From the UHGV virus genome UHGV-0224345: 16,502 nt of DNA. One strand, given 5' to 3'. Below are positions 1 to 16,502 of this stretch, in pieces (the first letter of the stretch is position 1; each line of letters opens with the position of its first letter). The DNA is from a virus. The position numbers and the translations under genes were made by a program. Below the pieces are notes generated by a model, which was not told the origin of the DNA, made no database searches, and saw nothing but the letters and a program-made list of their open reading frames with translations.

Positions 1-498
1 TACCTTAATCGCAGTGACCGGCGTAATTTTGCTGCGTTCTTCCGCTACAGAAGGTTTACCCACGTTAGTGACTTTCACCGTGCGGGTGATCACTTCTTTC
101 GCCGTCACGGCCTTACCGATACTGCTGACCCAGCCACGAAACACATCCACCGTGCCATTCGGAAAACGGATTTTATAGGCCCGGACATCGCCGCTTTCAA
201 ACCAGCCTATAAGCCCTTTCTGACCTTCCTCTCCCGGTTTCCAGGCCAGCGTAAAACTGGTATCACCTGCAGATTTCTGCCCCTGACCGGTCGCGGTCCA
301 GTCCGCGTCTTCATCATCCAGGTAGTTATCATCGTAGGGTTCAGCCGTCATCTCGCCCGGCGTCAGATCCTTCACCTTAGCCAGTCGCTGCCAGTCATCG
401 TCTGACAACGGGTTTGCATAAGCATCAGCCTTGCCGTTGTAAACCCACAGAGTGGTACCGGCACCTTTTACCGGCTCCAGGGGATTTGGTGTTGCCAT
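1..498 (-). CDS. V: Major tail protein V, N-terminal part; gene runs off the window start
   Basis: Reverse-complement from ATG at 498 translates [20 protein letters not shown]...[38 protein letters not shown], matching lambda gpV as I recall it. No stop before position 1, so it is absent from the ORF track. Confidence 0.9.
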
Positions 499-505
499 AT
501 CGTCC

Positions 506-901
506 TCACATCTCGTATGTAATGGAATAAGTCAGATCCGCAGAGCTCCATAACGCCATATCGTCATCACGACGATACTCATAGCCCTGCGTAACCATCG
601 TGGTAATCAGTCCTGCCAGTGCCGGGATCGCAGTCATCGCCGGGTAAATCCGGCTTTCCATCCACTGATCAAGCTCTGAATCCGGTACCTGTGCCGGTAA
701 AAACACCTCAATATGCAGCGTGGCCCGCCAGGTATCTGCATCCAGCTCTTCACCGGTATACTCTGCATCCGTCAGATAAACCGCGATCGCAGGAAAATCC
801 TCTTCGTCAAAAACAACGGGGCGACCATCAAACAGCGTCGCCCCGTGTTCATGCTGCTCGAGTGCATCCAGCACTGCGGCACGAATGTCAGTGTGTTTCA
901 T
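506..901 (-). CDS. U: Tail terminator protein U
   Basis: 131 aa, [17 protein letters not shown]...[13 protein letters not shown]; same length and near-identical to lambda gpU. ATGA start/stop overlap with Z. Confidence 0.95.
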
Positions 902-1473
902 CGTTTTATTGCAATCCTCAGTTGTTGTTTCAGCGCGTATGCCAGTTCTTTAGGCAGGCGTTCACGCCGGATACGGTCAACATTCTCATCAAATGCCTGT
1001 TTCAGTGGGGCCGCCATCGGGATTTTCACCACCTGAATGGGAAGGCGATTACGCTTTTTTCTTCCCTTGTCGTCATTGCCCTCCTCATATCTGGCCTGGG
1101 GAAGACGTTGCATAACATGCCAGCGCCCATTATTTAATCGCTGGATAAATGCCCGCTGATAACGATGCTGACCGGCTTTGAGTATGCTGTTCGGACGACG
1201 TCCCAGCATTCTGATCCCCAGCTTAATCACAGGGAGATCACCGCGGTTAACGATAATTCTGGCATTCGGATTTCTGACCGTCGCCCGTTTCAGTCTGGAC
1301 CGTTCCTTTACCAGTTTCCGTCTCACCCTGGTTTCCCGGGCAACCTGTGACGAAGACTGATTAATCGCCGTTGTGGCCACGCGGTTAATCGTCATTGCTG
1401 AAGCCGCCGGAATGGCGTTTTTACGAACCCGGCTCAGATTATCAATCGCCTGATCAAGCCCTTTTATCGCCAT
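898..1473 (-). CDS. Z: Tail completion protein Z
   Basis: 191 aa; N-terminus MAIKGL and C-terminus RRERLPKELAYALKQQLR resemble lambda gpZ, middle more diverged. Position between U and FII as in lambda. Confidence 0.9.
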   Translation of the reverse strand: MAIKGLDQAIDNLSRVRKNAIPAASAMTINRVATTAINQSSSQVARETRVRRKLVKERSRLKRATVRNPNARIIVNRGDLPVIKLGIRMLGRRPNSILKAGQHRYQRAFIQRLNNGRWHVMQRLPQARYEEGNDDKGRKKRNRLPIQVVKIPMAAPLKQAFDENVDRIRRERLPKELAYALKQQLRIAIKR

Positions 1474-1488
1474 AATTTCACCCTGCGT

Positions 1489-1842
1489 TTATCGTCGCCG
1501 GTTAACAGCGGGTGGTTGCCCACGGTTGAGCCAGAGATGACAGCTTCCACCATCATCCGGCGAAACCCGGTCTATCCAGAAGTTTTCCTCACCGATGGTC
1601 AGCGTGTCTCCACGCCGCAGTTGCCGCACATCATCAGTCCGGACAAACAGGGACGGGCTGGAGCCTTCAACGCGCACGCCCTGTCCGGCATAGCTGATAT
1701 TTTCAGGGTCATCAAAAACACCACGTATTACTGCGCCGGACTGCTCACCGGATGTCATGGTGGCTGACGTTCCCATGTACCCGCGTATCGTTTCATCGGC
1801 GCGGGCAATGGCAGCATCGAACAGGTTATCGAAATCAGCCAC
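1489..1842 (-). CDS. FII: Head-tail joining protein FII
   Basis: 117 aa, MADFDNLFDAAIARADETIRGYMG... near-identical to lambda gpFII. GTG start preceded by GGAGG. Confidence 0.93.
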   Translation of the reverse strand: MADFDNLFDAAIARADETIRGYMGTSATMTSGEQSGAVIRGVFDDPENISYAGQGVRVEGSSPSLFVRTDDVRQLRRGDTLTIGEENFWIDRVSPDDGGSCHLWLNRGQPPAVNRRR

Positions 1843-1853
1843 AGCGCCTCCCG

Positions 1854-2240
1854 TTATTGCATTCTGGCCAGGCCGCGTTCTGTCATTTCGGCTGCCACAC
1901 CGGCAGAGACACGGAACGCCGTTCCCGGCAGCACAAATGCCACAGTGTCATCCCGCGTGGCGTGAAGTGCATCAGTATGCAGCGTCACCAGTGCCACAAC
2001 CGTGACCAGATCAGCCGTATCAGTCACGGTATCCGGCTGCGCTGATACAACCTCATTTTCATGTCCGGTCAGCGCATTTTCCGGGCTGATAGGGGTATCC
2101 TGATCGGCAGTGTCATCAAGCTCCTCTTCCAGCTCTGCCACACGGAGCGCCAGTTCTTCTTTCGTTCCCGTCAGGCTGACATCACGGTTCAGTTGCTCAC
2201 CCAGCTCCTGAAGACGGGCAATCAGTTCATCTTTCGTCAT
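1854..2240 (-). CDS. FI: DNA packaging accessory protein FI
   Basis: Start chosen at MTKDELIARLQELGEQLNRDVSLTGTKEELALRVAELEEELDD (ATG 2240, GGAGGAG upstream); C-terminus AFVLPGTAFRVSAGVAAEMTERGLARMQ matches lambda gpFI. The track ORF extends 13 codons further upstream from a GTG. Confidence 0.9.
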   Translation of the reverse strand: MTKDELIARLQELGEQLNRDVSLTGTKEELALRVAELEEELDDTADQDTPISPENALTGHENEVVSAQPDTVTDTADLVTVVALVTLHTDALHATRDDTVAFVLPGTAFRVSAGVAAEMTERGLARMQ

Positions 2241-2263
2241 GAACTCCTCCACAGAGAGAAAAT

Positions 2264-2277
2264 GGCCCCGAAGGGCC
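2264..2277 (-). terminator. GC hairpin with UUCG loop plus pyrimidine/U-rich tail in the E-FI intergenic region
   Basis: Minus-strand RNA reads GGCCC-UUCG-GGGCC followed by AUUUUCUCUCU, immediately 3' of the E stop (2282-2284). Confidence 0.4.
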
Positions 2278-2281
2278 ACGA

Positions 2282-3307
2282 TTACGCCAGTTGTACGGAA
2301 ACGAACTCATCAGGGTCAGCCAGCAGCATCAGCGGTGCTGACTGAATCATGGTGAACTCACGCGCCGGATCGCCGGTGGTCACCCAGTTTTTCGGGTAAC
2401 GGGCAGAGGCGTTAATGCCTTCGCGCTGTGCATCCGCATCCTGAATGCAGCCATAGGTGCGCAGACCGCGTGCATGAGTGTTACCCAGCACCATCGTGTT
2501 GTCCGGCAGGAAGTTCTTTTTGACGCCGTTTTCCACGTACTGTCCGGAATACACGACGATGGCCACATCGCCATACATTCCCTTATAAGACACCGCTTTG
2601 CCCAGGTCTTTTACCGCTGTCTCCAGTTCGGAATGAGAGCCGCGACGGGTATCCAGCTTCTCCCTGACGGCTTTGAAGGAACGGAACAGCGCCCAGCCTT
2701 TCGGGTCAAACACAATGATATTCACCACGCCGCTGGCGTTCAGCGCGTAGGCTTCGATATCGTCGGTCGGGTCATACGTGGACTTGTCACGCTTGCTCCA
2801 CTCCGTGCCGCCGGACTGTGTGATGTTGTTCGCCGCACTGCGGCCCATATCCACCTCAACCGGATCAAAGGCTTCACCGGTCATGGTGTATTTGCCCTTA
2901 AGCACGGCAGAAACTGCCTGCATCTCTTCGACCTGGGCAATGGCCAGCTCTTCGTCACGCATGTTCTGCATGATGATGCGACGGCGGCGGTAAGCCGGGT
3001 CCGCCAGATTCTGCGGATCTTCATCCGGCAGGCGACGCAGGGTCATCTGCGGATTCACCTCATGCTTCGGCTTGACATATCCCGGCGTAAATTCAGAGGT
3101 GGAGCCGCCACGGGAACGGATAACCTCACCGGAAACAATCGGCGAAACGTACAGCGCCATGTTTACCAGTCCCGGAATTTGTGAGAGATAGACTTTCTCC
3201 GTGGTGAAGGGATAGCTCTCACGGAAAAAGAGACGCAGAAACAGCGGATCAAACTTAAATTTCTGCTCATTTGCCGCCAGCAGCTGGGCGGTTGTGTACA
3301 TCGACAT
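2282..3307 (-). CDS. E: Major capsid protein E
   Basis: 341 aa, MSMYTTAQLLAANEQKFKFDPLFLRLFFRESYPFTTEKVYLSQIPGLVNMALYVSP...; same length and near-identical to lambda gpE. Confidence 0.97.
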   Translation of the reverse strand: MSMYTTAQLLAANEQKFKFDPLFLRLFFRESYPFTTEKVYLSQIPGLVNMALYVSPIVSGEVIRSRGGSTSEFTPGYVKPKHEVNPQMTLRRLPDEDPQNLADPAYRRRRIIMQNMRDEELAIAQVEEMQAVSAVLKGKYTMTGEAFDPVEVDMGRSAANNITQSGGTEWSKRDKSTYDPTDDIEAYALNASGVVNIIVFDPKGWALFRSFKAVREKLDTRRGSHSELETAVKDLGKAVSYKGMYGDVAIVVYSGQYVENGVKKNFLPDNTMVLGNTHARGLRTYGCIQDADAQREGINASARYPKNWVTTGDPAREFTMIQSAPLMLLADPDEFVSVQLA

Positions 3308-3324
3308 AAAAAAATCCCGTAAAA

Positions 3325-3346
3325 AAAAGCCGCACAGGCGGCCTTT
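3325..3346 (-). terminator. Stem-loop plus U-tract in the D-E intergenic region (minus-strand RNA)
   Basis: Minus-strand RNA AAAGGCCGC-CUGU-GCGGCUUUU, then UUUUACGGGAUUUUUUU running into the E ATG. The 56-nt D-E gap matches lambda spacing. Confidence 0.45.
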
Positions 3347-3363
3347 AGTGATGAAGGGTAAGG

Positions 3364-3696
3364 TTAAACGATGCTGATTGCCGTTCCGGCAAACGCGGTC
3401 CGTTTTTTCGTCTCGTCGCTGGCAGCCTCCGGCCAGAGTACATCCTCATAACGGAACGTGCCGGACTTGTAGAACGTCAGCGTGGTGCTGGTCTGGTCAG
3501 CAGCAACCGCAAGAATGCCAACGGCAGCACCGTCGGTGGTGCCATCCCACGCAACCAGCTTACGGGTGGAGGTGTCCAGCATCAGCGGGGTCATTGCAGG
3601 CGCTTTCGCACTCAATCCGCCGGGCGCAGTTGCGGTATGAGCCGGGTCACTGTTGCCCAGCGGCTGGTAATGGGTAAAGGTTTCTTTGCTCGTCAT
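3364..3696 (-). CDS. D: Head decoration protein D
   Basis: 110 aa from the second ATG ([27 protein letters not shown]...[11 protein letters not shown]), matching lambda gpD. AAGGGA sits 5 nt upstream of this ATG. Confidence 0.95.
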
Positions 3697-3705
3697 AAAC
3701 ATCCC

Positions 3706-4311
3706 TTACACTGGTGTGTTCAGCAAATCGTTAACGGCATCAGATGCCGGGTTACCTGCAGCCAGCGGTGCCGGTGCCCCCTGCATCAGACGATCCAGCG
3801 CAGTGTCACTGCGCGCCTGTGCACTCTGTGGTGCAGCTGCCAGAATGCGGCGGGCCGTTTCCACGGTCATACCGGGGGTTTCTGCCAGCACGCGTGCCTG
3901 TTCTTCGCGTCCGTGAGCCTCCTCACAGTTGAGGATCCCCATAATGCGGCTGTTTTCTGCCGCAACCGCTGCGGTGATCTGCGCGTTCACGTCCGGCTGC
4001 GCCGCGCTGGCGTTCTCGCCCTCCGTCGCTGGCACCACGTCAGTAACGTCAGCCTGCGAAGCAGTGGCTGAAACAGTTGTTGATTGAGTCTCTTTGGTCA
4101 TTCGCCCTCCTGAGAGACGGGATTTACGTGCATCCAGTGCATCACGCATAACGGTGATCGCATCGGTACTGTTAACAAGTTCATCAGCCAGTCCGGCATC
4201 AATGGCCTCCTGACCGCTGTACACTGCAGCCTCGGTATCCAGCACAGCCTGCACGGACAGGCCGGTATATGCCGACACCTTCTGCGCAAACATCTGGCGG
4301 GTTGCGTCCAT
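3706..4311 (-). CDS. Nu3: Scaffolding protein Nu3, in-frame internal start within C
   Basis: ATG at 4311 (MDATRQMFAQKVSAYTGLSV...) lies 714 nt downstream of the C start and shares the C stop, the same geometry as lambda Nu3. Confidence 0.8.
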   Translation of the reverse strand: MDATRQMFAQKVSAYTGLSVQAVLDTEAAVYSGQEAIDAGLADELVNSTDAITVMRDALDARKSRLSGGRMTKETQSTTVSATASQADVTDVVPATEGENASAAQPDVNAQITAAVAAENSRIMGILNCEEAHGREEQARVLAETPGMTVETARRILAAAPQSAQARSDTALDRLMQGAPAPLAAGNPASDAVNDLLNTPV

Positions 4312-5005
4312 CCGGGACTGCAGTGTCTCCCGGACGTCATCCGGAAGATGGCTGTAGGGATTGCCATCCACCTTATGGCTGCCGCTGTAAATCAGCGTGA
4401 TTTCCACGCCCTGTTTCTCCAGCGCAGCACCGTAATTGCTGTGAGCCATCATGACGCCGATGGAGCCTGTCCGGGCGGTCTGCGTGACCAGACGCCGGGA
4501 GGCGGCGCTGGCAAGCAGCTGACCTGCACTGCAGTTCATGTCGTTGGCCAGCGCCCATACCGGTTTTATGTCTCGCACACGGGCGATGATGTCAGCACAG
4601 TCAAATGCTCCCGCCACCATTCCGCCTGGCGTGTCCATATCGAGCAGAATGCCGTCCACCATCGGATCGCTGGCAGCCTGTTGCAGACGGGCGATAATGC
4701 CGTTGTAACCGGTCATCCCCGAATACGGCTGTAGCGCCCGCGTCCGGCTGACCAGCGTGCCGGAAACCGGCAGCACGGCGATGCCGTTCATGACCTGATA
4801 ACTGCGGGCCTGTCGTGGTCCGTCATCATCACCGGATAATGCCAGCGCCGCGGGTGCCTCCTGGGCAGTCAGGCTGTCACCGGACACCGCATCCGTCAGG
4901 CGGCTGATCCCAAGCTGGCCTGCAAGCGCACAAAAGAAAACCCGCGCATAGGCGGGTTCAAGCATCAGCGGCTCATTAAAGGCCATACTGGCAATATGCG
5001 GGAGA

Positions 5006-5025
<20 letters not shown>
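3706..5025 (-). CDS. C: Head maturation protease / scaffold protein C
   Basis: Lambda gpC homolog of 439 aa beginning VTAELRNLPHIASMAFNEPLMLEPAYARVFF from GTG at 5025 (GGAGGAGAAGA upstream). The start overlaps the B stop by 20 nt as in lambda. The track's 477-aa ORF is an upstream in-frame extension. Confidence 0.93.
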
Positions 5026-8706
<3,681 letters not shown>

Positions 8707-8732
<26 letters not shown>

Positions 8733-9252
8733 TCAGCAACCCCGGTATCAGTTCATCCAGCGCGGCTGCTTTGTTCATGGCTTTGATGATATCCCGTTTC
8801 AGGAAATCAACATGTCGGTTTTCCAGTTCCGGAAAACGCCGCTGTACCGAGAGAGGGATCCCGTCAAGAATACTGGCAATTTCACCTGCGATCCGTGACA
8901 GCACGAAAGTACAGAATGCGGTTTCCACCACCTCTGCGGAGTCTCTGGCATTCTTCAGCTCCTGTGCGTCGGCCTGCGCACGCGTAAGTCGATGGCGTTC
9001 GTACTCAATAGTCCCAGGCTGGAGATCTGCCTCACTGGCAGCCCTGTAATCCTCAACCTCTTTACGGAGTTTTTCATTTTCGATATCAGCTTCCCTCTGC
9101 GCATACCACTGAATTGCCATGGCGGTATCAAATACAGATTCAACGCCCTTACCACCTCCGGAGACGCAAGGGAGTCCCTGAGACTGCCAGCGTTCAATCG
9201 TTCGCGGATCCACGTTGAAAATTTCGGCAAGTTTCTTTTTATTAACCTTCAT
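8707..9252 (-). CDS. nu1: Terminase small subunit Nu1 (N-terminal DNA-binding region diverged from lambda, remainder lambda-like)
   Basis: 181 aa. From about residue 70 ([60 protein letters not shown]...) it matches lambda Nu1 as I recall it. The N-terminal part ([41 protein letters not shown]...) is only partly conserved. Confidence 0.95.
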
Positions 9253-9277
9253 GAAACAGTCTCACAATAAATACAGG

Positions 9278-9393
9278 GGCCGACATGAAAGTGCCCGAAA
9301 ATGACTTTTTTAGGCGTTTTCATGTCGGACCTTTTACGGATTCGATATTAGAAAAAACAAATAGTTATGTTCGAGAAGTACCGACATGATTTT
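9278..9393. promoter_or_regulatory. cosB-like terminase binding region: three copies of CCGACATGA in the R1 / R2 (inverted) / R3 arrangement
   Basis: CCGACATGA at 9280-9288 and 9381-9389 (direct), TCATGTCGG at 9320-9328 (inverted), lying between cosN and the Nu1 start, where lambda has R3-I1-R2-R1. Confidence 0.6.
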
Positions 9394-9428
9394 CCCCGGA
9401 AAATTTTCATAAATAGCGAAAACCCGCG

Positions 9429-9440
9429 AGGTCGCCGCCC
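9429..9440 (-). other. cos: cosN cohesive-end site (12-nt GGGCGGCGACCT on minus strand); cosQ-like sequence about 9457-9470
   Basis: Reverse-complement of 9429-9440 is GGGCGGCGACCT, followed on the minus strand by CGCGGGTTTTCGCTATTTATGAAAATTTTCCGG. Plus strand 9441-9470 is the reverse-complement of a lambda right-end-like sequence (GGGTCCTTTCCGGCGATCCGACCGGTTACG). Confidence 0.9.
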
Positions 9441-9646
9441 CGTAACCGGTCGGATCGCCGGAAAGGACCCACGAAATGATAATGATTATCATCTATATAA
9501 GGTTTATCACAACATGTGTGTACGCCATCAAACCACGAGAAATAATCAATTATGACGCAGGTATCGTATTAATTGATCTGCGTCAAATTAACGTAAAAGC
9601 AACTTCAGATAATACAAATCAGCAACACTGAATATGGGGAAACATT

Positions 9647-9832
9647 ATGTCATCAAAGAACAGAACCCGCAGAACAACAACCCGCAACATCCGATTTCCA
9701 AACCAGATGATTGAACAAATTAACATCGCTCTTGATCTGAAAGGTTCAGGAAACTTTTCAGCGTGGGTTATTGAAGCCTGCAGAAGAAGGCTGTCAACAG
9801 AGAGTTCGGGTATGAATTACATAATTAAGTAA
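9647..9832 (+). CDS. Small ribbon-helix-helix (Arc/MetJ/CopG-like) putative DNA-binding protein
   Basis: 61 aa, MSSKNRTRRTTTRNIRFPNQMIEQINIALDLKGSGNFSAWVIEACRRRLSTESSGMNYIIK. Basic N-tail, then strand (NIRFP), helix (MIEQINIALDLKG), helix (NFSAWVIEACRRRL). GGGGAAA sits upstream of the ATG. Lies in an AT-rich island. Confidence 0.65.
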   Translation: MSSKNRTRRTTTRNIRFPNQMIEQINIALDLKGSGNFSAWVIEACRRRLSTESSGMNYIIK

Positions 9833-9964
9833 CATGGTGTTCACAGAACACGCAGTTACCGGACACATCAGTTTTCCATTCGCTCCCCGGCAGTACAGGC
9901 TTCCCCTCTGACGGGATAGCCTGAAAAAATAACACAGAAAATTATTTGTTATAATTAATATAAC

Positions 9965-10105
9965 TTACTCAAAAAAAAGCGACGAGAAAATCAGCATCAA
10001 CGAACAATAAGCGCCAATACGTGATAACAAATGGCAGCCATATTTATCTGCAGTATAAGCAATGGACAGGATAACCACACCAGAAACCGTCAGCATAAAA
10101 TCCAT
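9965..10105 (-). CDS. Candidate 46-aa hydrophobic peptide (not in ORF track; hand-translated)
   Basis: Minus-strand ATG at 10105 to TAA at 9965-9967 gives MDFMLTVSGVVILSIAYTADKYGCHLLSRIGAYCSLMLIFSSLFFE. GGGGAAG lies 6 nt upstream. AT-rich context, convergent with the RHH ORF. Confidence 0.25.
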   Translation of the reverse strand: MDFMLTVSGVVILSIAYTADKYGCHLLSRIGAYCSLMLIFSSLFFE

Positions 10106-10455
10106 TTGAACTTCCCCGGACAAAATCGACTCATCTAAAGATTTACAGCTCTTTTTATTATCAATATGTTAAAAGTAAAATAAACAGATGTTCAATAACA
10201 CGAATACAAAAACGTGCTGAAATTCAATGAATCCATTTCTGTGTCATCAATTAATAGTGATAAACATCCGGCTTCTTCCACCATCGCACCGGACAGGCGA
10301 CTATGAGGGGACAACGCCGCGCTCCGTTAACGCGGTAAACCCCGGTGTGTATCGTTTTTGATTATCCCCGCACACTCGCGCAGAGGAGTCTCCCTGTCGG
10401 GCTGCGGTCTCTGTTAATGAGGGAATACAGCGACGATACGGCGCATCAACAAAAC

Positions 10456-10929
10456 TTATTTCAGGCACTGAGTGCGGATATAGTCCTGTGCCCCTTCCAG
10501 TTGCTTGTGCATCGTCATCAGCCGCTCTCTGAGGGTGAAATAATCCCGTGTAACGGTGTCTGCCAGTTGGGGGCCGGTTGCATTATCCACGCCGGAGGTG
10601 GTGGGGGCTTCACGCACGGAGCCTGGACAGGTGGCGTTGATCCGCAGGCGCTTACGACCAGCGGCAACGTCAGCGCGAAGAGTTTCATTTTCAGCTCTCG
10701 CATCGGCTAATTCCCTCGAGTATTTTGCATCGAGCGCAGCAACATCGCGCTGGCGCACCTGCATATCAGTAATGGTTGCGTTCGCCAGCTTCAGTTCACT
10801 GGCTTTGTTATCGCGCTGCGCTTTGTAGGTAATCGCGTTATCACGGTAATGGTCTGTTGCCATCCACAGCGCACCACAGGCCACCAGCAGAATAACGATA
10901 AACGCGGAAAGCATTCGGTTTATGTTCAC
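10456..10929 (-). CDS. Rz: Spanin inner-membrane subunit Rz (i-spanin)
   Basis: 157 aa; [69 protein letters not shown]...[22 protein letters not shown] strongly resembles lambda Rz. GTG start overlaps the upstream ORF stop (GTGA); an alternative ATG is at 10914. Confidence 0.9.
10518..10703 (-). CDS. Rz1: Spanin outer-membrane lipoprotein Rz1 (o-spanin), embedded in the +1 frame of Rz
   Basis: 61 aa, [61 protein letters not shown]. Lipobox (VVSAC) and proline-rich [11 protein letters not shown] core as in lambda Rz1; nested entirely within Rz. Confidence 0.85.
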
Positions 10930-11057
10930 CCCAGCAACCCCGACGAAGACAACATCATCCAGGCCATGGAAAGAAAAAGAGCAACCAGCATTAGTGAAAA
11001 TGAAATGCCGACAATTACACAGAGGATCTTCGCCAGCGTTATGAGTTTGTCTGACAT
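10926..11057 (-). CDS. Small single-pass membrane protein (43 aa), translationally coupled to Rz
   Basis: [43 protein letters not shown] from ATG at 11057 with GGGAGG 7 nt upstream; stop TGA overlaps the Rz GTG. The track shows a 73-aa version extended upstream. Confidence 0.45.
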
Positions 11058-11071
11058 GCTTAATCCTCCCT

Positions 11072-11254
11072 TCACGATTTCAACGCAATGACCAGTTTTG
11101 CCAGCCCATACAGCATCGGGGACACAGCAACACCGACCGCCACCCACTTAATGGCAAAAGCCAGTGCTCTGCTGATGTCATCAGTTACAGGCGCTTTCAG
11201 TTCAAGGCCATTTTTCATAGTCAACCTCAACAGAATTCGTTTATACTTCGCCAT
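11072..11254 (-). CDS. Small protein (60 aa) with C-terminal hydrophobic segment
   Basis: [60 protein letters not shown] from ATG at 11254 with AAGGGAGAA upstream; stop 14 nt before the next ORF's ATG. The track shows a 71-aa version from an upstream GTG. Confidence 0.45.
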
Positions 11255-11410
11255 GTTCTCCCTTGCCTTACTCAAGGTCAGAAACACAAAACCTCGCTTG
11301 GTGCCAACAAACGGGGTTTTTACTTTTATTCACTTACGTTTCGCCAGTTCGCAGGATTTCGTGTTATCCGCCCGCGTGGCCATTCCTCATTTTTCAGCAA
11401 AATATTCTGC

Positions 11411-11944
11411 TTATCTGTCGATTCCCCAGCACGCCAGCGCGCTCTCCTGGTCACGACGGGATACCTGACCATAACAGTTATTTGAGCGGATACGGCAGTC
11501 TCTGCCACCGTCCTTAATCCACCAGCGAATCGCCTCACACGCTCCCCTGCGATCACCTGCATTAATTCGTTTATAAAACGTCGACGGGAAACACTTACCG
11601 GGACCAATGTTGTACGGACAGAATGACGCGATCCCCGCTTTCTGGGGTTCACTCAATGGCACTCTGATGTTTTTCTCCACCCATGCCAGCGCCTTATCAC
11701 GCTCAATGGCGTTAACCCGGTCGCATTTTTCCTTCGACAACTTCATGCCCGGGACGACAGGTTTACTATCCACCAGGATGGCACCGCGGCAGATGGTCCA
11801 GATACCCGCGCCATCACGGTATGCCGTGGTGTGGTTACCTTCCTTTTCATCCAGAAACTGGTCGAGGATTTCAGGCGCAGGCGCACCTGCGGCAATCAGC
11901 GCCAGAACGGCAGCCGACAGGCCGTATTTGATTTTGGTGTTCAT
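11411..11944 (-). CDS. R: SAR (signal-anchor-release) endolysin, T4-lysozyme-like muramidase
   Basis: 177 aa, MNTKIKYGLSAAVLALIAAGAPAPEILDQFLDEKEGNHTTAYRDGAGIWTICRGA... Weakly hydrophobic Gly/Ala-rich N-terminal segment, then a lysozyme-like E...D...T catalytic motif; resembles phage 21 R21 / prophage RrrD-type lysozymes. Confidence 0.9.
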   Translation of the reverse strand: MNTKIKYGLSAAVLALIAAGAPAPEILDQFLDEKEGNHTTAYRDGAGIWTICRGAILVDSKPVVPGMKLSKEKCDRVNAIERDKALAWVEKNIRVPLSEPQKAGIASFCPYNIGPGKCFPSTFYKRINAGDRRGACEAIRWWIKDGGRDCRIRSNNCYGQVSRRDQESALACWGIDR

Positions 11945-11994
11945 GGATATTTATCAGGGTTTATCGATTTCAAATCCCTGGATATGTTAAGTCT

Positions 11995-12339
11995 TCAGGC
12001 CAGCGGTGGAGTCTTCAGAGAACCAGTAATTATTCCCGGTAGTTTTCCTCTGTAGGTTATCAACACATCCTGCGCCTCTAAAATTACGGGGCGCTTTTCC
12101 GGCAACGGACCATCCCCTTCACATAACCCGGCAGCAACATCCATGAAAAACTGCTTCGCCTGCTTTTTCGCCTCAGCTTCGTAAAACTCCAGCGTGGCAT
12201 CTTCAGTACGGTCAAGACTAATCGCCACATCTGGCAACAACAGTGACGGATACCCACCAATTTCCAGTGCCACAGTAACAGTAATCTTATCCGGGTAATT
12301 ATTTATCCCTTTAACAACCAGTTCGTATTTTTTCTTCAT
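11995..12339 (-). CDS. Conserved-looking protein of unknown function inserted between holin and endolysin
   Basis: 114 aa, MKKKYELVVKGINNYPDKITVTVALEIGGYPSLLLPDVAISLDRTEDATLEFYEAEAKKQAKQFF... ATG lies 4 nt after the holin stop. No transmembrane segment evident. Confidence 0.7.
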   Translation of the reverse strand: MKKKYELVVKGINNYPDKITVTVALEIGGYPSLLLPDVAISLDRTEDATLEFYEAEAKKQAKQFFMDVAAGLCEGDGPLPEKRPVILEAQDVLITYRGKLPGIITGSLKTPPLA

Positions 12340-12343
12340 CGCT

Positions 12344-12559
12344 TTACTCTCCCCGCGCCGCCTTACGCCGGTCCTCTCTGATTTTGAAATACAGGTTAGT
12401 CAGATATGTCAGCAGCCCAAACAGCAGACTCCCCAGCACGCCTATTGCCGCCCACTGAGACGGGGAAACCCTGTCCAGCAACTGCAGGAACCAGTAGCCC
12501 GTTCCCACCGCTGACGTGGTGTATGACACACCTGTTGTGATTTTTTCCATCTGGTACAT
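12344..12559 (-). CDS. S: Class II holin (phage 21 S21-type pinholin) with dual-start motif
   Basis: 71 aa, [71 protein letters not shown]; strongly resembles phage 21 S (S2171/S2168) as I recall it. Met1 and Met4 give a holin/antiholin dual start. Confidence 0.9.
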
Positions 12560-12599
12560 ACCCCGTCTCCCGTTATCCGGAAGCTCACAACAATATAAA

Positions 12600-12623
12600 G
12601 ACCACCGGCACACACCGATGGTC
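12600..12623 (-). terminator. Strand-specific intrinsic-terminator-like hairpin about 40 nt upstream of the holin start
   Basis: Minus-strand RNA GACCAUCGG-UGUGUG-CCGGUGGUC (9 bp including one G-U, which would be a C-A mismatch on the plus strand), followed by CUUUAUAUUGUUGUG. Confidence 0.5.
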
Positions 12624-12635
12624 CCTTGCGCAGGC

Positions 12636-12881
12636 TTACATCATCATGTCGCTGTCAGGTGTGGGTTCACCGCCATCTGAAGCACTCCCGTCACCCGCGA
12701 TACCTTCCGGCTCCGGAACCGCTGGTACGCCCAGCAGCTCATCCAGAATGGCATCCACTTCTGCATCAAGACGCGACTCAAGGTTCTGGCGGAGTTTCTG
12801 TTTCAGTGCGCTCAGGACTTCTTCAGAGCGCAGGACTTCCTTCACTGCCTCAGCAGTGACCAGGGATGTGATTTCTGACAT
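12636..12881 (-). CDS. Small acidic protein of unknown function (81 aa)
   Basis: [81 protein letters not shown] from ATG at 12881. Protein-like composition, whereas overlapping plus-strand ORFs are Ser/Arg/Pro-rich. Weak ribosome-binding site. Confidence 0.55.
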
Positions 12882-12918
12882 GGGATTTTCTCGTTGAAAG
12901 GTGTTGTCAAGAAAGTGA

Positions 12919-13101
12919 CTACGGAATGAGCGGATCTTCGGGTTTGCTTCCGGCTGACTGACTGGCGCTGATTCTCTCAGCGGCCCTTTTATCAATCTGC
13001 CTGCGCCAGAAATCGCGCACTGCCCTGTACCCACCCGAAAGAAGATACATAACACAGACTGCCATACAGAAGTACAGCATTACCTGATGAATAAATGTCA
13101 T
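12919..13101 (-). CDS. Small membrane protein (60 aa), N-terminal transmembrane helix and basic C-terminal tail
   Basis: MTFIHQVMLYFCMAVCVMYLLSGGYRAVRDFWRRQIDKRAAERISASQSAGSKPEDPLIP; ATG at 13101 with a weak Shine-Dalgarno sequence. Confidence 0.4.
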   Translation of the reverse strand: MTFIHQVMLYFCMAVCVMYLLSGGYRAVRDFWRRQIDKRAAERISASQSAGSKPEDPLIP

Positions 13102-13199
13102 AATTTCTTACCGTTATGGTTGACAATGAGAACTGTTTTCATTTAGAAATGATTGATGTCGAAAGCATCTTTTCTTTACATTCTCCATTGGGATTACCT

Positions 13200-13236
13200 C
13201 CGCCAGCTTCCATTCCTGCCGCTGGCGGCTTTTTTT
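13200..13236 (+). terminator. Rho-independent terminator oriented on the plus strand, abutting the NanS-p-like stop codon
   Basis: Plus strand CCGCCAGC-(13-nt loop)-GCTGGCGG then C and seven T (13230-13236). On the minus strand the hairpin is preceded by an A-run and not followed by U. Confidence 0.6.
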
Positions 13237-13237
13237 A

Positions 13238-15214
13238 TCATGCCGCGATGTCCGCGTTGTTCACTTCCACCTTCACACTGTCAATCAGCAGCGTATATGT
13301 CGCCGCCTTTGATATGCCTGTCAGTTGCAGTTTGTCCGCCGCCCCTGATGCCGGAGATTTCACCAGTGTGAACGGCGTCCCCCGTTTCTCATCCAGTACC
13401 GGCGTCACCTGAATGCTGTTGTTTCCGGCAAACTCAAAAGCCAGTGTGTGCCATCCGTTATCAAAGACCCCGAACGTTTCCAGCTTCGCATTCGGCTTCT
13501 TGTGGTGCATCGCGTTCAGGTTCGTCGCATCCGTCTGCAGAAAGAAGGACATCAGCATGTCGTTGCCTTCCTCTGCCAGCGTCACTCCCTCCGGCAGGGA
13601 CGACAACTGCCAGTAAATGCCCAGGGCAAACTGATTCGGCACCAGTGAACCCGGCAACTTAAACCGTACGCTCACACGTCCCCCCTTCTTCAGTAACTCC
13701 ACTCCCTGTCCGGCTGCATCATGCTCCAGAAACCAGATGTGGTTTTCCGGTTTATTCAGTTGCAGGGCCTTACCTCCCGTAGCCCCCGCATCACTGACCA
13801 CCGCTTCAGCAATGTTTTTGTTAACATTGTCTCCGCTCGCCGGTTTGTGATAATAGCGCCAGCCCTGTGATGCCAGGTCTTCGCCGGACGCCAGCAGACT
13901 CATCAGGGTTCGGTTACTGACCGGGGCTTCCGGCTCTCTCTCCGTACCTTCACCGGAAGGTCCGGTGGGCTTCACCGTATCAGGCTGTTTTCCGGTAATG
14001 AATTCAGCGTTTCTCCCGGCATGCACAAGAATCGCCGTTGCCAGACGGTCGGAAATAATCCCACGACGTGCCCATGATCCAAAATGCGTTTTACGGTCGG
14101 CCGTCGTCCAGGTTTTGGCGTCCGTTCGACCACCGGCTCCGTAATACCCAATATCCGCAACATCCGGATCTTCTGACGGCTCGTTGGTACCCACATTTCG
14201 CCCGTTTTCATCCGTCATAAACGGCACAAAGAAGATTTTTTTTGCGGATTTCGTCTTGTATGCACCATACACCGCATCGTATTGCGAAGAATAAGTCTGC
14301 TTCCAGTAGTAGGTCGTGTCGCCACAAATCCAGGGAACCGATGACGGAGAGCCCCCGAGACACTGACCTCCGAATTCCGACAGGTCAGAACGATATTTTT
14401 CCACCATGGAATCAAACAGCCCCGGCTGAGTGGCGTATGCACCCTGTTTCAAATCAAACTCGCCCTGCATCCAGACCACTGCAAGCAGAATATTTTTAGG
14501 GTTGGCCTTCAGTGCGGCCTGAGTACGGGTAAGCAGGTCCTTGTACAGTGGCTTATCAACACCCCAGCGTGCCGAGGTCTCGCTTGCGCCGGTGGATTCG
14601 CTGAAGGTACCTTCATCGCCCGCCAAAAATGCAGAACCACCACGGCAGCACGGAACCAGAAGAATACCGGCATTCGCCGGAATAAACGGCAACAATTTCT
14701 TCGCGATATGTAATCCCTGCCCCACGCATCCATACTGAGCTGCGCTGGCTTTCGGGTGTGAAAACTTACTCAAATCCTGAACATCATGCAGGCAGTGGTC
14801 CGCAGGAATAATGTCATTGTAGTTACAGGACGCACCACCCGGCGTGACAGTGCTGCGACGCGCCAGCTGTTTAATACGCGGGTCCGGACGGTCATATGTC
14901 TCCGGCAGCGGAAGCCCTTCACCATACGCCATACCGTTTGACTGCCCGGCCAGGGCAACAACAAAGTAATACTCCGGGTTGCTGGTGGTGCTGATAACTG
15001 CGCCTTCTCCATCCGACGGCTTCACCACCACAGGTGTGGTGACATCACCTTCCGCCGCAATGGCCTGCATCAGGGTATAAGGCGTGATGGCCACCGGACT
15101 GCCAAATGGCTGCCACCCCTCCTTCAGTTTTTGTGTCAGTCGTTTCGCAAGGTCTGACGGCGATGCCGCCCTGACAACATCATAGTGTTTAAATGCCATG
15201 GTTCTTTCCACCAT
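13238..15214 (-). CDS. nanS-p: Prophage-encoded sialate O-acetylesterase (NanS-p-like; N-terminal DUF1737-like region plus SGNH-type esterase and C-terminal domain)
   Basis: 658 aa. MAFKHYDVVRAASPSDLAKRLTQKLKEGWQPFGSPVAITPYTLMQAIAAEGD... resembles the NanS-p / YjhS-like esterases of EHEC lambdoid prophages, which sit between the late regulatory region and S. The likely start is the second ATG at 15199 (MAFKH). Confidence 0.85.
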   Translation of the reverse strand: MVERTMAFKHYDVVRAASPSDLAKRLTQKLKEGWQPFGSPVAITPYTLMQAIAAEGDVTTPVVVKPSDGEGAVISTTSNPEYYFVVALAGQSNGMAYGEGLPLPETYDRPDPRIKQLARRSTVTPGGASCNYNDIIPADHCLHDVQDLSKFSHPKASAAQYGCVGQGLHIAKKLLPFIPANAGILLVPCCRGGSAFLAGDEGTFSESTGASETSARWGVDKPLYKDLLTRTQAALKANPKNILLAVVWMQGEFDLKQGAYATQPGLFDSMVEKYRSDLSEFGGQCLGGSPSSVPWICGDTTYYWKQTYSSQYDAVYGAYKTKSAKKIFFVPFMTDENGRNVGTNEPSEDPDVADIGYYGAGGRTDAKTWTTADRKTHFGSWARRGIISDRLATAILVHAGRNAEFITGKQPDTVKPTGPSGEGTEREPEAPVSNRTLMSLLASGEDLASQGWRYYHKPASGDNVNKNIAEAVVSDAGATGGKALQLNKPENHIWFLEHDAAGQGVELLKKGGRVSVRFKLPGSLVPNQFALGIYWQLSSLPEGVTLAEEGNDMLMSFFLQTDATNLNAMHHKKPNAKLETFGVFDNGWHTLAFEFAGNNSIQVTPVLDEKRGTPFTLVKSPASGAADKLQLTGISKAATYTLLIDSVKVEVNNADIAA

Positions 15215-15392
15215 CTGAAAAATAATTCTTTAAAATACCTGACATGTAATACAGAAAAAACACAAAACCATACCTTAAATAAAAACCTCATCATCAAGCA
15301 GATATGCATGGATAAACTACAAGACGAGATATAAACCACCCTGCATTTAAATAAACAATAAACAACATCAGAAAAATAATTCTGCTCTATGG

Positions 15393-15421
15393 TTTACATT
15401 CAAAAATATCATTTATACTTT
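15393..15421 (+). promoter_or_regulatory. Candidate sigma-70 promoter for the 111-aa ORF
   Basis: TTTACA (15393-15398), 17-bp spacer, TACTTT (15416-15421); alternatively TATACT at 15414-15419 with a 15-bp spacer. AAGGAA ribosome-binding site before the ATG at 15460. Confidence 0.35.
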
Positions 15422-15459
15422 TCAGAACATCACCAGCAAGACATAAACAAGGAAACTAA

Positions 15460-15795
15460 ATGAAGTGGATTGTGATTGATACAGTTATCCAGCCATCATG
15501 CGGAATATCTTTTTCAGTCATATGGAGTAAAATAAAATTAATAATCTGGTATCAATCGGATGCTTTCTTACCTCCTGAAAGTATATTTACACTGACTCAC
15601 ACAGGTATCATGCTCAATAACAAAGTGCTACCTGTAACCATTTACAACGTAGCACCATTCAATAAAACATTCTGGAATTTAATCAAAAACAGCCAGGAAT
15701 GTCCTACAAATACAGATAACGTATTGAATGAATGCTTTAATAACCGTTGCACTCTGCAAATATGTCCTTATGGACTAAAACAACAAAGTCCATAA
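15460..15795 (+). CDS. Hypothetical protein (111 aa), AT-rich, Cys-containing, divergently transcribed from the NanS-p-like gene
   Basis: [111 protein letters not shown]. Good ribosome-binding site (AAGGAA 6 nt upstream). Markedly AT-rich compared with flanking phage genes. Confidence 0.55.
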
Positions 15796-15830
15796 GGAGT
15801 TTACTCACATCTGACAAAATCAATATAAAC

Positions 15831-15850
15831 AGCCCCTCCGGAGAGGGGCT
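15831..15850. terminator. GC-rich hairpin AGCCCCTC-CGGA-GAGGGGCT; U-rich tail only on the minus-strand side
   Basis: 8-bp GC-rich stem with 4-nt loop. Minus-strand RNA continues GUUUAUAUUGAUUUUGUC; plus-strand RNA continues GGAGAGUGGCGC. Confidence 0.4.
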
Positions 15851-16287
15851 GGAGAGTGGCGCTATGTGCCATTGCATGGTGCCGGGTGCCTCCCGGTGAA
15901 TTCAGTACCAGCACCTGAATCCGCGATTATCCCATATACCTACTCGCTGATTGCCCCTCCGCACAGGGGGATTCACCATGCCAGTTTCTTTTAACAAACT
16001 CCCCGCAAACCAGACAACAGTCAACCGCCTGAATTGTGAAGTATTTAAAAATTTCTCCCGCTAACTGATACCCGGCTAACAGTCTGGCGTTTTCTTTTTC
16101 AGCAACGGGAAAGCAACAACCACCACACCCGCCACCAGCACACCGTCAGCCAGCACTGACATTATCCGGCTGCTGCAATGCCACTCACAAAAACAGTAAG
16201 CAATCACTTTTTACCGTAACAAGTGATAATCCAGATATGTATCTACCCCAGATGAGTAATCCGAAGTTCATCCATACCACAGGTACT

Positions 16288-16502
16288 GGCTATTCTGTTG
16301 TACTCCTGAACAAGAGCAAATAATTCTGAATTAGCAACCATGAACTCATCGCAAACCCGGTGATGCTGCCAACTTACTGATTTAGTGTATGATGGTGTTT
16401 TTGAGGTGCTCCAGTGGCTTGCAGCATCACCGGGTTTGCGATGAGTTCATGGTTGCTAATTCAGAATTATTTGCTCTTGTTCAGGAGTACAACAGAATAG
16501 CC
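16288..16502. repeat. Perfect 82-bp inverted repeat (arms 16288-16369 and 16421-16502) around a 51-bp spacer; the right arm runs to the last base of the window
   Basis: The reverse-complement of 16421-16502 is identical to 16288-16369 (checked base by base). Confidence 0.85.
16359..16420 (+). mobile_element. IS1 left terminal fragment (about 62 bp including the left inverted repeat), truncated
   Basis: GGTGATGCTGCCAACTTACTGATTTAGTGTATGATGGTGTTTTTGAGGTGCTCCAGTGGCTT matches the IS1 left end as I recall it. The expected continuation (CTGTTTCTATCAGC..., the insA start) is absent. Confidence 0.75.

What the first reader, a model, noticed from the sequence alone, without database searches (positions are those of the whole stretch)
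15215..15850. AT-rich, divergently transcribed 111-aa ORF with its own promoter-like signals
The region upstream of the NanS-p-like gene drops sharply in GC content. It contains a plus-strand ORF with a good ribosome-binding site, a plausible -35/-10 pair, and a GC hairpin 35 nt after its stop. The protein has five Cys, no recognisable motif, and codon usage unlike the neighbouring phage genes. This is the layout of a horizontally acquired accessory gene; the function is unknown.
Basis: partly seen in the sequence, partly recalled or inferred. Interest (0 to 1): 0.55.

Follow-up and report, generated by a model that had tools for sequence, protein, structure and literature searches.

The report
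Known RpoS-stabiliser gene iraL on prophage
The AT-rich 111-codon gene is iraL, an already characterised prophage-borne gene whose small protein blocks the adaptor RssB and so protects the stress sigma factor RpoS from degradation; the finding is real but ordinary.

Summary
The ORF is real: window 15460-15795, + strand, 111 aa, 5 Cys, 34% GC inside a 630-bp AT-rich block. Its function is already known. It is iraL, the fourth RssB anti-adaptor of E. coli (Hryckowian et al. 2014, PMC4045071).

- **Identity:** it differs by one residue (A65 vs V65) from the characterised CFT073 gene c1429. Its promoter region is conserved with CFT073, and the published 5'RACE start site maps to window 15427.
- **Family match:** it scores 162 bits on NCBIfam NF007393 (cut-off 121). 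Residues 1-78 match the IraM chain of the IraM-RssB crystal structure 8TWD (E 2e-32).
- **Distribution:** the same 636 bp occur in 1446 of 5426 complete E. coli genomes.

"No recognisable motif, function unknown" is wrong. The GC hairpin is also misassigned. It is the terminator of a convergent prophage sRNA on the minus strand (Rfam STnc100, 15821-16010, 132 bits). It is also present in a related phage that lacks iraL.

Side observations:
- Stx2 phages carry an apparently unstudied IraM-family clade in the same slot, next to stx2B.
- Four C-terminal cysteines are invariant across the family.
- The contig ends in an IS1 fold-back.

Novelty: already known.

The parts
15460..15795 (+). iraL coding sequence (111 aa plus stop), an RssB anti-adaptor of the IraL/IraM family
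   Evidence: ORF list. NCBIfam NF007393 at 3.7e-48, 162.4 bits vs cut-off 121. 110 of 111 residues identical to CFT073 IraL and 63% identical to K-12 IraM. 3 of 336 nt differ from CFT073, two of them synonymous. PDB 8TWD IraM chain at E 2.2e-32 over residues 1-78. PHROG 4407 at 4e-73.
15427..15459 (+). iraL 5' UTR. The transcription start is at 15427, assigned by homology to the CFT073 5'RACE product. AGGA Shine-Dalgarno at 15450-15453.
   Evidence: The published mRNA 5' end ACATCACCAGCAAGGCATAAACAAGGAAACCA maps to 15427-15458 with 2 substitutions.
15393..15419 (+). Inferred sigma-70 promoter: TTTACA (15393-15398), 15-nt spacer, TATACT (15414-15419, positions -13 to -8)
   Evidence: Read from the sequence relative to the mapped start site. 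Window 15293-15425 (-134 to -2 relative to the start site) is identical to CFT073, where the paper predicts sigma-70 -10/-35 elements. My hexamer assignment is an inference, and the generic scan did not call it.
15201..15830. AT-rich iraL cassette (about 32% GC; one search gives 0.317 for 15215-15829), bounded by the esterase start codon and the sRNA terminator stem
   Evidence: Phage PhiR5_1 matches window 14619-15200 and 15831-16142. In between it has 233 bp of unrelated DNA. Composition profile.
15209..15229 (+). Copy 1 of a 21-nt direct repeat, CACCATCTGAAAAATAATTCT, lying over the esterase start region
   Evidence: the repeat finder. The 18-nt core was found twice, with 0 matches expected in shuffles. 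Function unknown.
15363..15383 (+). Copy 2 of the direct repeat, CAACATCAGAAAAATAATTCT, at -64 to -44 of the iraL start site
   Evidence: A possible regulator site; not tested.
15821..16010 (-). STnc100-family prophage sRNA, convergent with iraL. Its terminator stem is the GC hairpin at 15830-15851, followed by UUUAUAUUG.
   Evidence: Rfam RF02076 at 132.4 bits (gathering score 47), full-length match to model positions 1-206, with the hairpin aligned to the model's terminal stem. Terminator-like on the minus strand only. The published STnc_100 qPCR primers match exactly at 15888-15907 and 15961-15980.
13238..15199 (-). NanS-p-like sialate O-acetylesterase gene, intact here and divergent from iraL
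   Evidence: Pfam DUF1737 (9.5e-16), SASA (6.2e-09) and DUF6645 (2.4e-43). PHROG 143. The RefSeq homologue starts at the position equal to 15199. The gene is truncated in CFT073 and frameshifted in MCJCHV-1.
16076..16207 (-). Small DUF3927 / TciB-like moron ORF (43 aa) upstream of the sRNA
   Evidence: ORF list. RefSeq 'DUF3927 family protein' at the same place in MCJCHV-1 and CFT073. PHROG 1470 at 7.8e-13.

Best explanation
The ORF is iraL, a prophage-borne member of the IraL/IraM family of RssB anti-adaptors.

Proposed mechanism:
1. It is transcribed from its own sigma-70-type promoter, starting at window 15427, during ordinary exponential growth of the lysogen. This is independent of, and antisense to, the phage late operon.
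2. The 111-aa protein folds into a PmrD-like beta-barrel (residues 1-78) followed by a Cys-rich tail.
3. It binds the N-terminal receiver domain of the ClpXP adaptor RssB. This probably happens on the alpha4-beta5-alpha5 face, through I4, I6, W22, K26 and I42.
4. Binding prevents RssB from handing sigma-S (RpoS) to ClpXP. Sigma-S half-life roughly doubles, and the general stress regulon is primed even without stress.

Shown elsewhere for the near-identical CFT073 allele: the transcription start, the effect on sigma-S level and half-life, co-purification with RssB, and two-hybrid binding to the RssB N-terminal domain. Inferred here: that this allele behaves the same way, and the identity of the contact surface.
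For: **Identity with the characterised gene**
- 110 of 111 residues are identical to CFT073 IraL.
- The CDS differs at 3 of 336 nt, and the 260 nt upstream at 7 positions.
- The published 5'RACE start maps to 15427, and window 15293-15425 (-134 to -2) is identical to CFT073.

**Family membership**
- NCBIfam NF007393 at 162.4 bits vs cut-off 121.
- PDB 8TWD IraM chain at 2.2e-32.
- An AF2 model (low confidence, pLDDT 56) reproduces the strand/helix order. Its top Foldseek hits are 8TWD_A (E 3e-7, TM 0.70) and then PmrD 2JSO.

**Same genomic slot as CFT073 iraL**
- In CFT073's potB-island lambdoid prophage the order is Q - tRNAs - DUF3927 - iraL - esterase - holin.

**Published function of IraL**
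- Deleting iraL lowers log-phase sigma-S and halves its half-life (about 5 min to 2.5 min).
- iraL with its native promoter raises sigma-S in K-12.
- His-IraL and CBP-RssB co-purify.
- Two-hybrid interaction is with the RssB N-terminal domain only.

**Contact residues, taken from the IraM-RssB structure and checked here**
- Cluster I (N-terminal-domain contacts): 5 of 5 identical.
- Cluster II (C-terminal-domain contacts): 3 of 5 (T13S, L75I).
- Cluster III (linker contacts): 2 of 4 (H63N, I64V).
- This pattern fits N-terminal-domain-only binding.

**Expression in lysogens is documented**
- IraL levels increased in CFT073 lacking Fur.
- iraL mRNA rises by 1.6 log2 at 37 C vs 23 C.

**Prevalence**
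- 1446 of 5426 complete E. coli genomes carry this DNA, 670 of them at 99% identity or more.
Against: - Nothing in the sequence contradicts this reading.
- No experiment was done on this allele or in this host.
- Position 65 (A here and in K-12 IraM, V in CFT073) lies between contact residues I64 and P66, so an effect on binding cannot be excluded.
- There are 3 substitutions at or after the start site (-1, +15, +31) that have not been tested.
- The hexamers I assign have a short 15-nt spacer, and the consensus scan did not call them.
- The window does not include rssB, rpoS or the integration site, so the host background is unknown.
Confidence: 0.93

Rival explanations
1. It is the Mg2+-starvation anti-adaptor IraM, as the database name says. 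That would make it an orthologue of K-12 b1160, induced through PhoP/PhoQ and binding both RssB domains.
For: RefSeq and NCBIfam label it 'anti-adapter protein IraM'. The N-terminal domain is 67% identical to K-12 IraM over residues 1-78.
Against: - It is only 63% identical to K-12 IraM but 99% identical to IraL.
- The upstream regions of iraL and iraM cannot be aligned beyond the start codon, so the iraM regulatory inputs are not inherited.
- The genomic context differs: K-12 iraM lies beside e14, while iraL lies in a lambdoid late region.
- The paper finds no overlap between iraL and iraM BLAST matches, and a different RssB interaction pattern.
Confidence: 0.03
2. It is an intact iraL allele that is silent or inactive in this host. 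Possible causes are xenogeneic silencing of the AT-rich cassette, the start-site-proximal substitutions, or the A65 change.
For: - The cassette has about 32% GC in a 53% GC prophage, which is typical of H-NS targets. From my own knowledge, K-12 iraM and iraD are H-NS-repressed (Battesti et al. 2012).
- iraL mRNA is lower at 23 C than at 37 C in CFT073.
- The paper notes that promoter variants of unknown activity exist, such as JJ1886 iraL2.
Against: - Window 15293-15425 (-134 to -2 relative to the start site) is identical to CFT073, where the gene is active in log phase.
- This exact 636-bp allele is shared at 100% identity by many clinical isolates, which argues that it is maintained.
- A65 is the residue found in functional K-12 IraM.
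Confidence: 0.04
3. It is a spurious ORF in AT-rich spacer DNA.
For: Pfam finds nothing even at E<=10. The promoter scan is not above chance.
Against: - Chance probability of such an ORF is 0.007.
- It is a full-length match to a curated family and to a crystallised homologue.
- The family is conserved down to 53% identity, with invariant residues.
- Genetic and biochemical data exist for the CFT073 allele.
Confidence: 0.002

Closest known systems
IraL of uropathogenic E. coli CFT073 (c1429, WP_000871291.1; Hryckowian et al. 2014, PMC4045071)
   Same: 110 of 111 residues identical. Same promoter and start site, same length, and the same prophage slot between DUF3927/tRNAs/Q and the esterase and lysis genes.
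   Different: - A65 instead of V65.
- 7 substitutions in the 260 nt upstream.
- The neighbouring esterase gene is intact here but truncated to its DUF1737 stub in CFT073.
- The window's structural-gene module is mosaic relative to the MCJCHV-1 potB-type prophage.
IraM of E. coli K-12 (b1160, formerly YcgW/ElbA; structure 8TWD with RssB)
   Same: Same family and fold. 63% identity. All five RssB N-terminal-domain contact residues are conserved, as are the four tail cysteines.
   Different: - Unrelated upstream region.
- 107 aa vs 111 aa.
- Substitutions at C-terminal-domain and linker contact positions (T13S, L75I, H63N, I64V).
- IraM responds to Mg2+ starvation and contacts both RssB domains, whereas IraL acts in unstressed log phase and binds only the N-terminal domain in two-hybrid assays.
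IraM-family gene of Stx2a/Stx2c-converting phages (e.g. LC567829.1 'iraM', NC_011357.1 phage 1717)
   Same: Same slot and orientation: antisense, between the STnc100 sRNA and the nanS-p esterase gene. 76% protein identity to the window's IraL.
   Different: - A distinct clade, 65% identical to IraM, and 107 aa long.
- It lies directly downstream of stx2B.
- It is unannotated in most of the 41 phage records.
- I found no functional study of it.
RssC of Salmonella (IraL/IraM-like)
   Same: The IraL paper reports it as a family member found only in Salmonella. A Salmonella-associated fragment, 34% identical over residues 35-109, keeps the four tail cysteines and the CP.GL motif.
   Different: Much more divergent: the paper gives 49% nucleotide identity. 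I did not confirm that the fragment I saw is RssC.
PmrD (polymyxin-resistance connector protein; PDB 2JSO/4HN7)
   Same: Same unusual beta-barrel fold, and it also binds a response-regulator receiver domain.
   Different: 15% sequence identity. It targets PmrA rather than RssB and has no Cys-rich tail. It is not a family member by sequence: my own Pfam scan found nothing, although the precomputed table lists PF11183 for the homologues.
IraD and IraP (the other RssB anti-adaptors)
   Same: Same target (RssB) and the same outcome, sigma-S stabilisation.
   Different: Unrelated sequences and folds, different RssB surfaces and different inducing signals. They are functional analogues, not relatives.

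Membership tests
IraL (as defined by Hryckowian et al. 2014) | [quoted passage not shown] | tested here: met
   333 of 336 nt identical (99.1%).
IraL (as defined by Hryckowian et al. 2014) | Conserved iraL promoter and upstream regulatory region (at least 96% identity to CFT073) with the mapped start site | tested here: met
   7 mismatches in 260 nt upstream (97.3%). Window 15293-15425 (-134 to -2) is identical. The 5'RACE sequence maps to 15427 with 2 substitutions.
IraL (as defined by Hryckowian et al. 2014) | Located in a lambdoid prophage (the potB island in CFT073), not beside e14 | tested here: inconclusive
   The local context (DUF3927 - iraL - esterase - holin/lysis - terminase) matches CFT073 and MCJCHV-1. 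The integration site lies outside the window, and the head genes are mosaic.
IraL (as defined by Hryckowian et al. 2014) | Binds RssB (N-terminal domain) and increases sigma-S stability in log phase | not testable with these tools
   Shown for the CFT073 allele only. Here it is inferred from 99% identity.
IraM/IraL anti-adaptor family (NCBIfam NF007393) | Full-length match above the curated cut-off | tested here: met
   162.4 bits vs 121, residues 1-110 on profile positions 1-113 of 114.
IraM/IraL anti-adaptor family (NCBIfam NF007393) | PmrD-like beta-barrel with a C-terminal helix (residues 1-78), as in 8TWD | tested here: met
   phmmer hit to 8TWD_A at 2.2e-32. The AF2 model has 7 strands plus helix 69-76, and its top Foldseek hit is 8TWD_A with TM 0.70. 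Model confidence is low (pLDDT 56).
IraM/IraL anti-adaptor family (NCBIfam NF007393) | Conservation of the RssB-contact residues defined in the IraM-RssB crystal structure | tested here: met
   Cluster I 5 of 5, cluster II 3 of 5 (the other two conservative), cluster III 2 of 4, P66 kept.
IraM sensu stricto (K-12 b1160 orthologue) | At least 95% identity to K-12 iraM, and the iraM regulatory region | tested here: not met
   63% protein identity. The upstream regions are not alignable.
STnc100 sRNA (Rfam RF02076), for the hairpin | Covariance-model score above the gathering threshold, full length, with a terminal stem-loop and U-tract | tested here: met
   132.4 bits vs 47, model positions 1-206. 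The hairpin at 15830-15851 aligns to the terminal stem. It is terminator-like on the minus strand only.
NanS-p prophage sialate O-acetylesterases, for the neighbouring gene | DUF1737 + SASA esterase + C-terminal DUF6645 architecture | tested here: met
   Pfam hits at 9.5e-16, 6.2e-09 and 2.4e-43.

The most novel reading that the evidence does not exclude
The iraL family, the STnc100 sRNA and the nanS-p esterase gene may form a conserved three-part accessory module in lambdoid late regions. The arrangement suggests three untested couplings.
1. iraL and the convergent sRNA share one hairpin as a bidirectional 3' end, so their transcription could interfere.
2. Q-antiterminated late transcription reads through that hairpin antisense to iraL, which would switch the RpoS stabiliser off once the prophage is induced.
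3. The invariant C-X10-C-X4-C-X4-C tail, removed from the only crystal structure, could be a metal or redox sensor that gates anti-adaptor activity.

The sister clade next to stx2B in Stx2 phages would then link Shiga-toxin prophage carriage to RpoS control.
Probability: 0.12. Interest if true: 0.4.

Novelty: already known. Interest (0 to 1): 0.07.

Why it matters
For this window it matters little. The gene, its promoter, its binding partner and its phenotype were published in 2014, and about a quarter of complete E. coli genomes carry it. The practical value is correct annotation:
- the product is IraL, not 'IraM' and not a hypothetical protein;
- the hairpin belongs to the STnc100 sRNA;
- the RefSeq 'hypothetical protein, partial' on the + strand at 15866-15994 overlaps that sRNA, so it is questionable as a protein-coding gene.

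The biological point is that a temperate phage delivers a constitutive stabiliser of the general stress sigma factor, re-wiring RpoS levels in uropathogenic and Shigella lineages. The side observations could justify small follow-up experiments. These are the apparently unstudied IraM-family clade beside stx2B in 41 Stx2 phage records and the invariant Cys4 tail.

Tried and rejected
- **Pfam** scans of the ORF at E<=0.01 and E<=10 found nothing. The precomputed table lists PF11183 (PmrD) for the homologues. I therefore treat the PmrD relation as fold-level only.
- **Generic promoter scan:** no enrichment, and it missed the mapped promoter, so it is not informative here.
- **tRNA scan:** none in the window. 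The tRNAs found upstream in CFT073 and MCJCHV-1 lie beyond the IS1 break.
- **Promoter comparison:** aligning the iraL and iraM upstream regions to look for a shared PhoP-type site showed no homology.
- **Fur box:** I looked by eye for a Fur box in the 21-nt direct repeat. The match was poor, so I dropped the idea.
- **AF2 model:** low confidence (pLDDT 56, tail below 50). I used it only to confirm strand order and the top PDB hits. It says nothing about the Cys tail.
- **Literature searches:** searches for iraL with H-NS, and for RssB with Stx2 phage, found no direct study.
- **Hairpin as iraL's own terminator:** rejected. There is no T-run on the + strand, it matches the sRNA model, and it is present in the phage that lacks iraL.

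Full report
**Observation**

The described features are present.
- The ORF listing gives a + strand ORF at 15460..15795 (ATG start, 111 aa). It has five cysteines, at positions 14, 81, 92, 97 and 102.
- GC drops from 0.55-0.57 over the neighbouring minus-strand gene to 0.31-0.34 across 15200-15800.
- The ORF has GC 0.342 and GC3 0.32. The neighbouring esterase gene has GC 0.547 and GC3 0.59.
- AGGA sits 6 nt before the ATG.
- A 9-bp GC-rich stem lies at 15830-15851, starting 35 nt after the stop codon.
- The neighbour on the minus strand (13238..15199/15214) has the NanS-p architecture DUF1737 + SASA + DUF6645.
- An ORF this long arises in only 0.7% of composition-matched simulations of the AT-rich block.
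- The generic sigma-70 scan is not enriched over shuffles and does not call the real promoter.

**Identification**

The 636-bp interval matches 1446 of 5426 complete E. coli genomes, 670 of them at 99% identity or more. Every listed best hit is annotated 'anti-adapter protein IraM'. It also matches four phage records.

Pfam is silent. NCBIfam NF007393 (IraM) matches end to end at 3.7e-48, with 162 bits against a cut-off of 121. Residues 1-78 match the IraM chain of PDB 8TWD at 2.2e-32.

The literature resolves the name. Hryckowian et al. 2014 (PMC4045071) described IraL, the CFT073 homologue of IraM. It is 58.9% identical to IraM at the protein level by their count, and it lies on the potB prophage island.

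I fetched the CFT073 region and K-12 iraM for comparison.
- The window protein is 110/111 identical to CFT073 IraL and 63% identical to K-12 IraM.
- The CDS differs from CFT073 at 3 of 336 nt: two synonymous changes and A65 vs V65.
- The 260 nt upstream differ at 7 positions.
- The published 5'RACE sequence maps to window 15427-15458 with two substitutions.
- Window 15293-15425 (-134 to -2 relative to the start site) is identical to CFT073.

From the start site I infer TATACT (15414-15419) as the -10 element and TTTACA (15393-15398) as the -35 element, with a 15-nt spacer. This hexamer assignment is my own inference. The upstream regions of iraL and iraM share no alignable sequence, which fits their different regulation.

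**Mechanism**

The following was shown for the CFT073 allele.
- Deleting iraL lowers log-phase sigma-S and halves its half-life, from about 5 min to 2.5 min.
- iraL with 100 bp of native promoter raises sigma-S in K-12.
- IraL and RssB co-purify in both directions.
- In two-hybrid assays IraL binds only the RssB N-terminal domain, whereas IraM binds both domains.

The IraM-RssB crystal structure (PMC10844676) defines three contact clusters. I checked each in the window protein.

| Cluster | RssB region contacted | IraM residues | Identical in the window protein |
|---|---|---|---|
| I | N-terminal domain, 4-5-5 face | I4, I6, W22, K26, I42 | 5 of 5 |
| II | C-terminal domain | T13, C14, F18, W30, L75 | 3 of 5 (T13S, L75I) |
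| III | linker | I61, Y62, H63, I64 | 2 of 4 (H63N, I64V) |

That pattern agrees with N-terminal-domain-only binding.

An AF2 model built from 16 family members is of low confidence (pLDDT 56, tail below 50). It still reproduces seven strands plus helix 69-76. Its top PDB matches are 8TWD_A (TM 0.70) and then PmrD 2JSO.

Expression in lysogens is documented. IraL levels increased in CFT073 lacking Fur. iraL (c1429) mRNA rises by 1.6 log2 at 37 C relative to 23 C.

**The hairpin and the cassette boundaries**

The hairpin scores as an intrinsic terminator only on the minus strand, where UUUAUAUUG follows it. On the + strand GAGAGUGG follows it.

Rfam places a full-length STnc100 sRNA (RF02076, 132.4 bits, gathering score 47) at 15821-16010 on the minus strand. 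The hairpin aligns to the model's terminal stem. Published STnc_100 qPCR primers match the window exactly.

Phage PhiR5_1 provides an empty site. Its DNA matches window 14619-15200 and 15831-16142, with 233 bp of unrelated, GC-normal DNA in between, and the hairpin is retained. The acquired cassette is therefore 15201-15830, and the hairpin is backbone.

On the minus (late-operon) strand the local order is: small DUF3927/TciB-like ORF, then STnc100, then iraL (antisense), then the esterase gene, then the lysis genes. In CFT073 and MCJCHV-1 the Q gene and tRNA genes precede this.

**Relatives**

The word-indexed protein search found only Escherichia proteins, all named IraM where a name is given.

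A tblastn search of phage records found 46 records.
- Four carry iraL (97% identity).
- 41 are mostly Stx2a/Stx2c-converting phages with a distinct 107-aa clade. It is 76% identical to IraL and 65% identical to IraM. It sits in the same antisense slot between STnc100 and nanS-p, directly downstream of stx2B. Most of these records leave it unannotated.
- One is a Salmonella-associated fragment at 34% identity.

My searches of the paper library found no functional study of the Stx2-phage clade.

**Verdict**

The finding is a correct description of a real gene, but that gene is already characterised. 'Function unknown' and 'its own hairpin' are not. Novelty: already known. Interest is low.

Noticed in passing
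window 15821-16010 (-): A full-length STnc100-family prophage sRNA (Rfam RF02076, 132 bits) lies convergent with iraL. Its terminator is the GC hairpin in the finding. The RefSeq 'hypothetical protein, partial' on the + strand (window 15866-15994) overlaps it, so that ORF is questionable as a protein-coding gene.
   Followed up: yes
L005 (LC567829.1) 4816-5139; 41 Stx2a/Stx2c phage records: Stx2-converting phages carry a third IraM-family clade: 107 aa, 76% identical to IraL and 65% identical to IraM. It lies antisense between stx2B/STnc100 and nanS-p. Most records leave it unannotated, and I found no functional study.
   Followed up: partly
window ORF residues 81, 92, 97, 102 (nt about 15700-15768): The tail pattern C-X10-C-X4-C-X4-C, followed by P-x-G, is invariant in 16 family members spanning 53-97% identity. 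All four cysteines are also kept, with a one-residue insertion between the second and third, in a 34%-identical Salmonella fragment. The tail is otherwise the less conserved part and was removed from the crystal structure 8TWD. A metal- or redox-binding role is possible but untested.
   Followed up: partly
window 15209-15229 and 15363-15383 (+): A 21-nt direct repeat, CA(C/A)CATC(T/A)GAAAAATAATTCT, occurs twice (19 of 21 identical; none expected in shuffles). One copy lies over the esterase start and the other at -64 to -44 of the iraL start site. It could be a regulator binding site.
   Followed up: partly
window 16359-16502: Homology to the reference prophages stops at 16358. The next 65-73 nt are the end of IS1 (98.5% identity to 'IS1 family transposase' loci). 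Positions 16432-16502 are the exact reverse complement of 16288-16358, forming an 82-nt perfect inverted repeat with a 51-nt loop. This looks like a contig-end fold-back artefact at an IS1 insertion.
   Followed up: partly
window 13238-15199 (-): The NanS-p-like esterase gene is intact here (653-658 aa). It is truncated to a DUF1737 stub in CFT073 and in phage vB_EcoS-640R1, and frameshifted in MCJCHV-1.
   Followed up: no
window 1-10300: The structural-gene part of the window is mosaic relative to the MCJCHV-1 potB-type prophage. Only 10327-11953 and 12012-16358 are collinear at 97-99% identity, so the iraL cassette travels on different phage backbones.
   Followed up: no
L003 (K-12) 16681-18108: K-12 iraM lies just outside the annotated e14 boundary, next to ycgX (DUF1398). 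A DUF1398 gene, ydfO, is also present in the CFT073 iraL prophage. The iraM locus may therefore also be a lambdoid prophage remnant.
   Followed up: no
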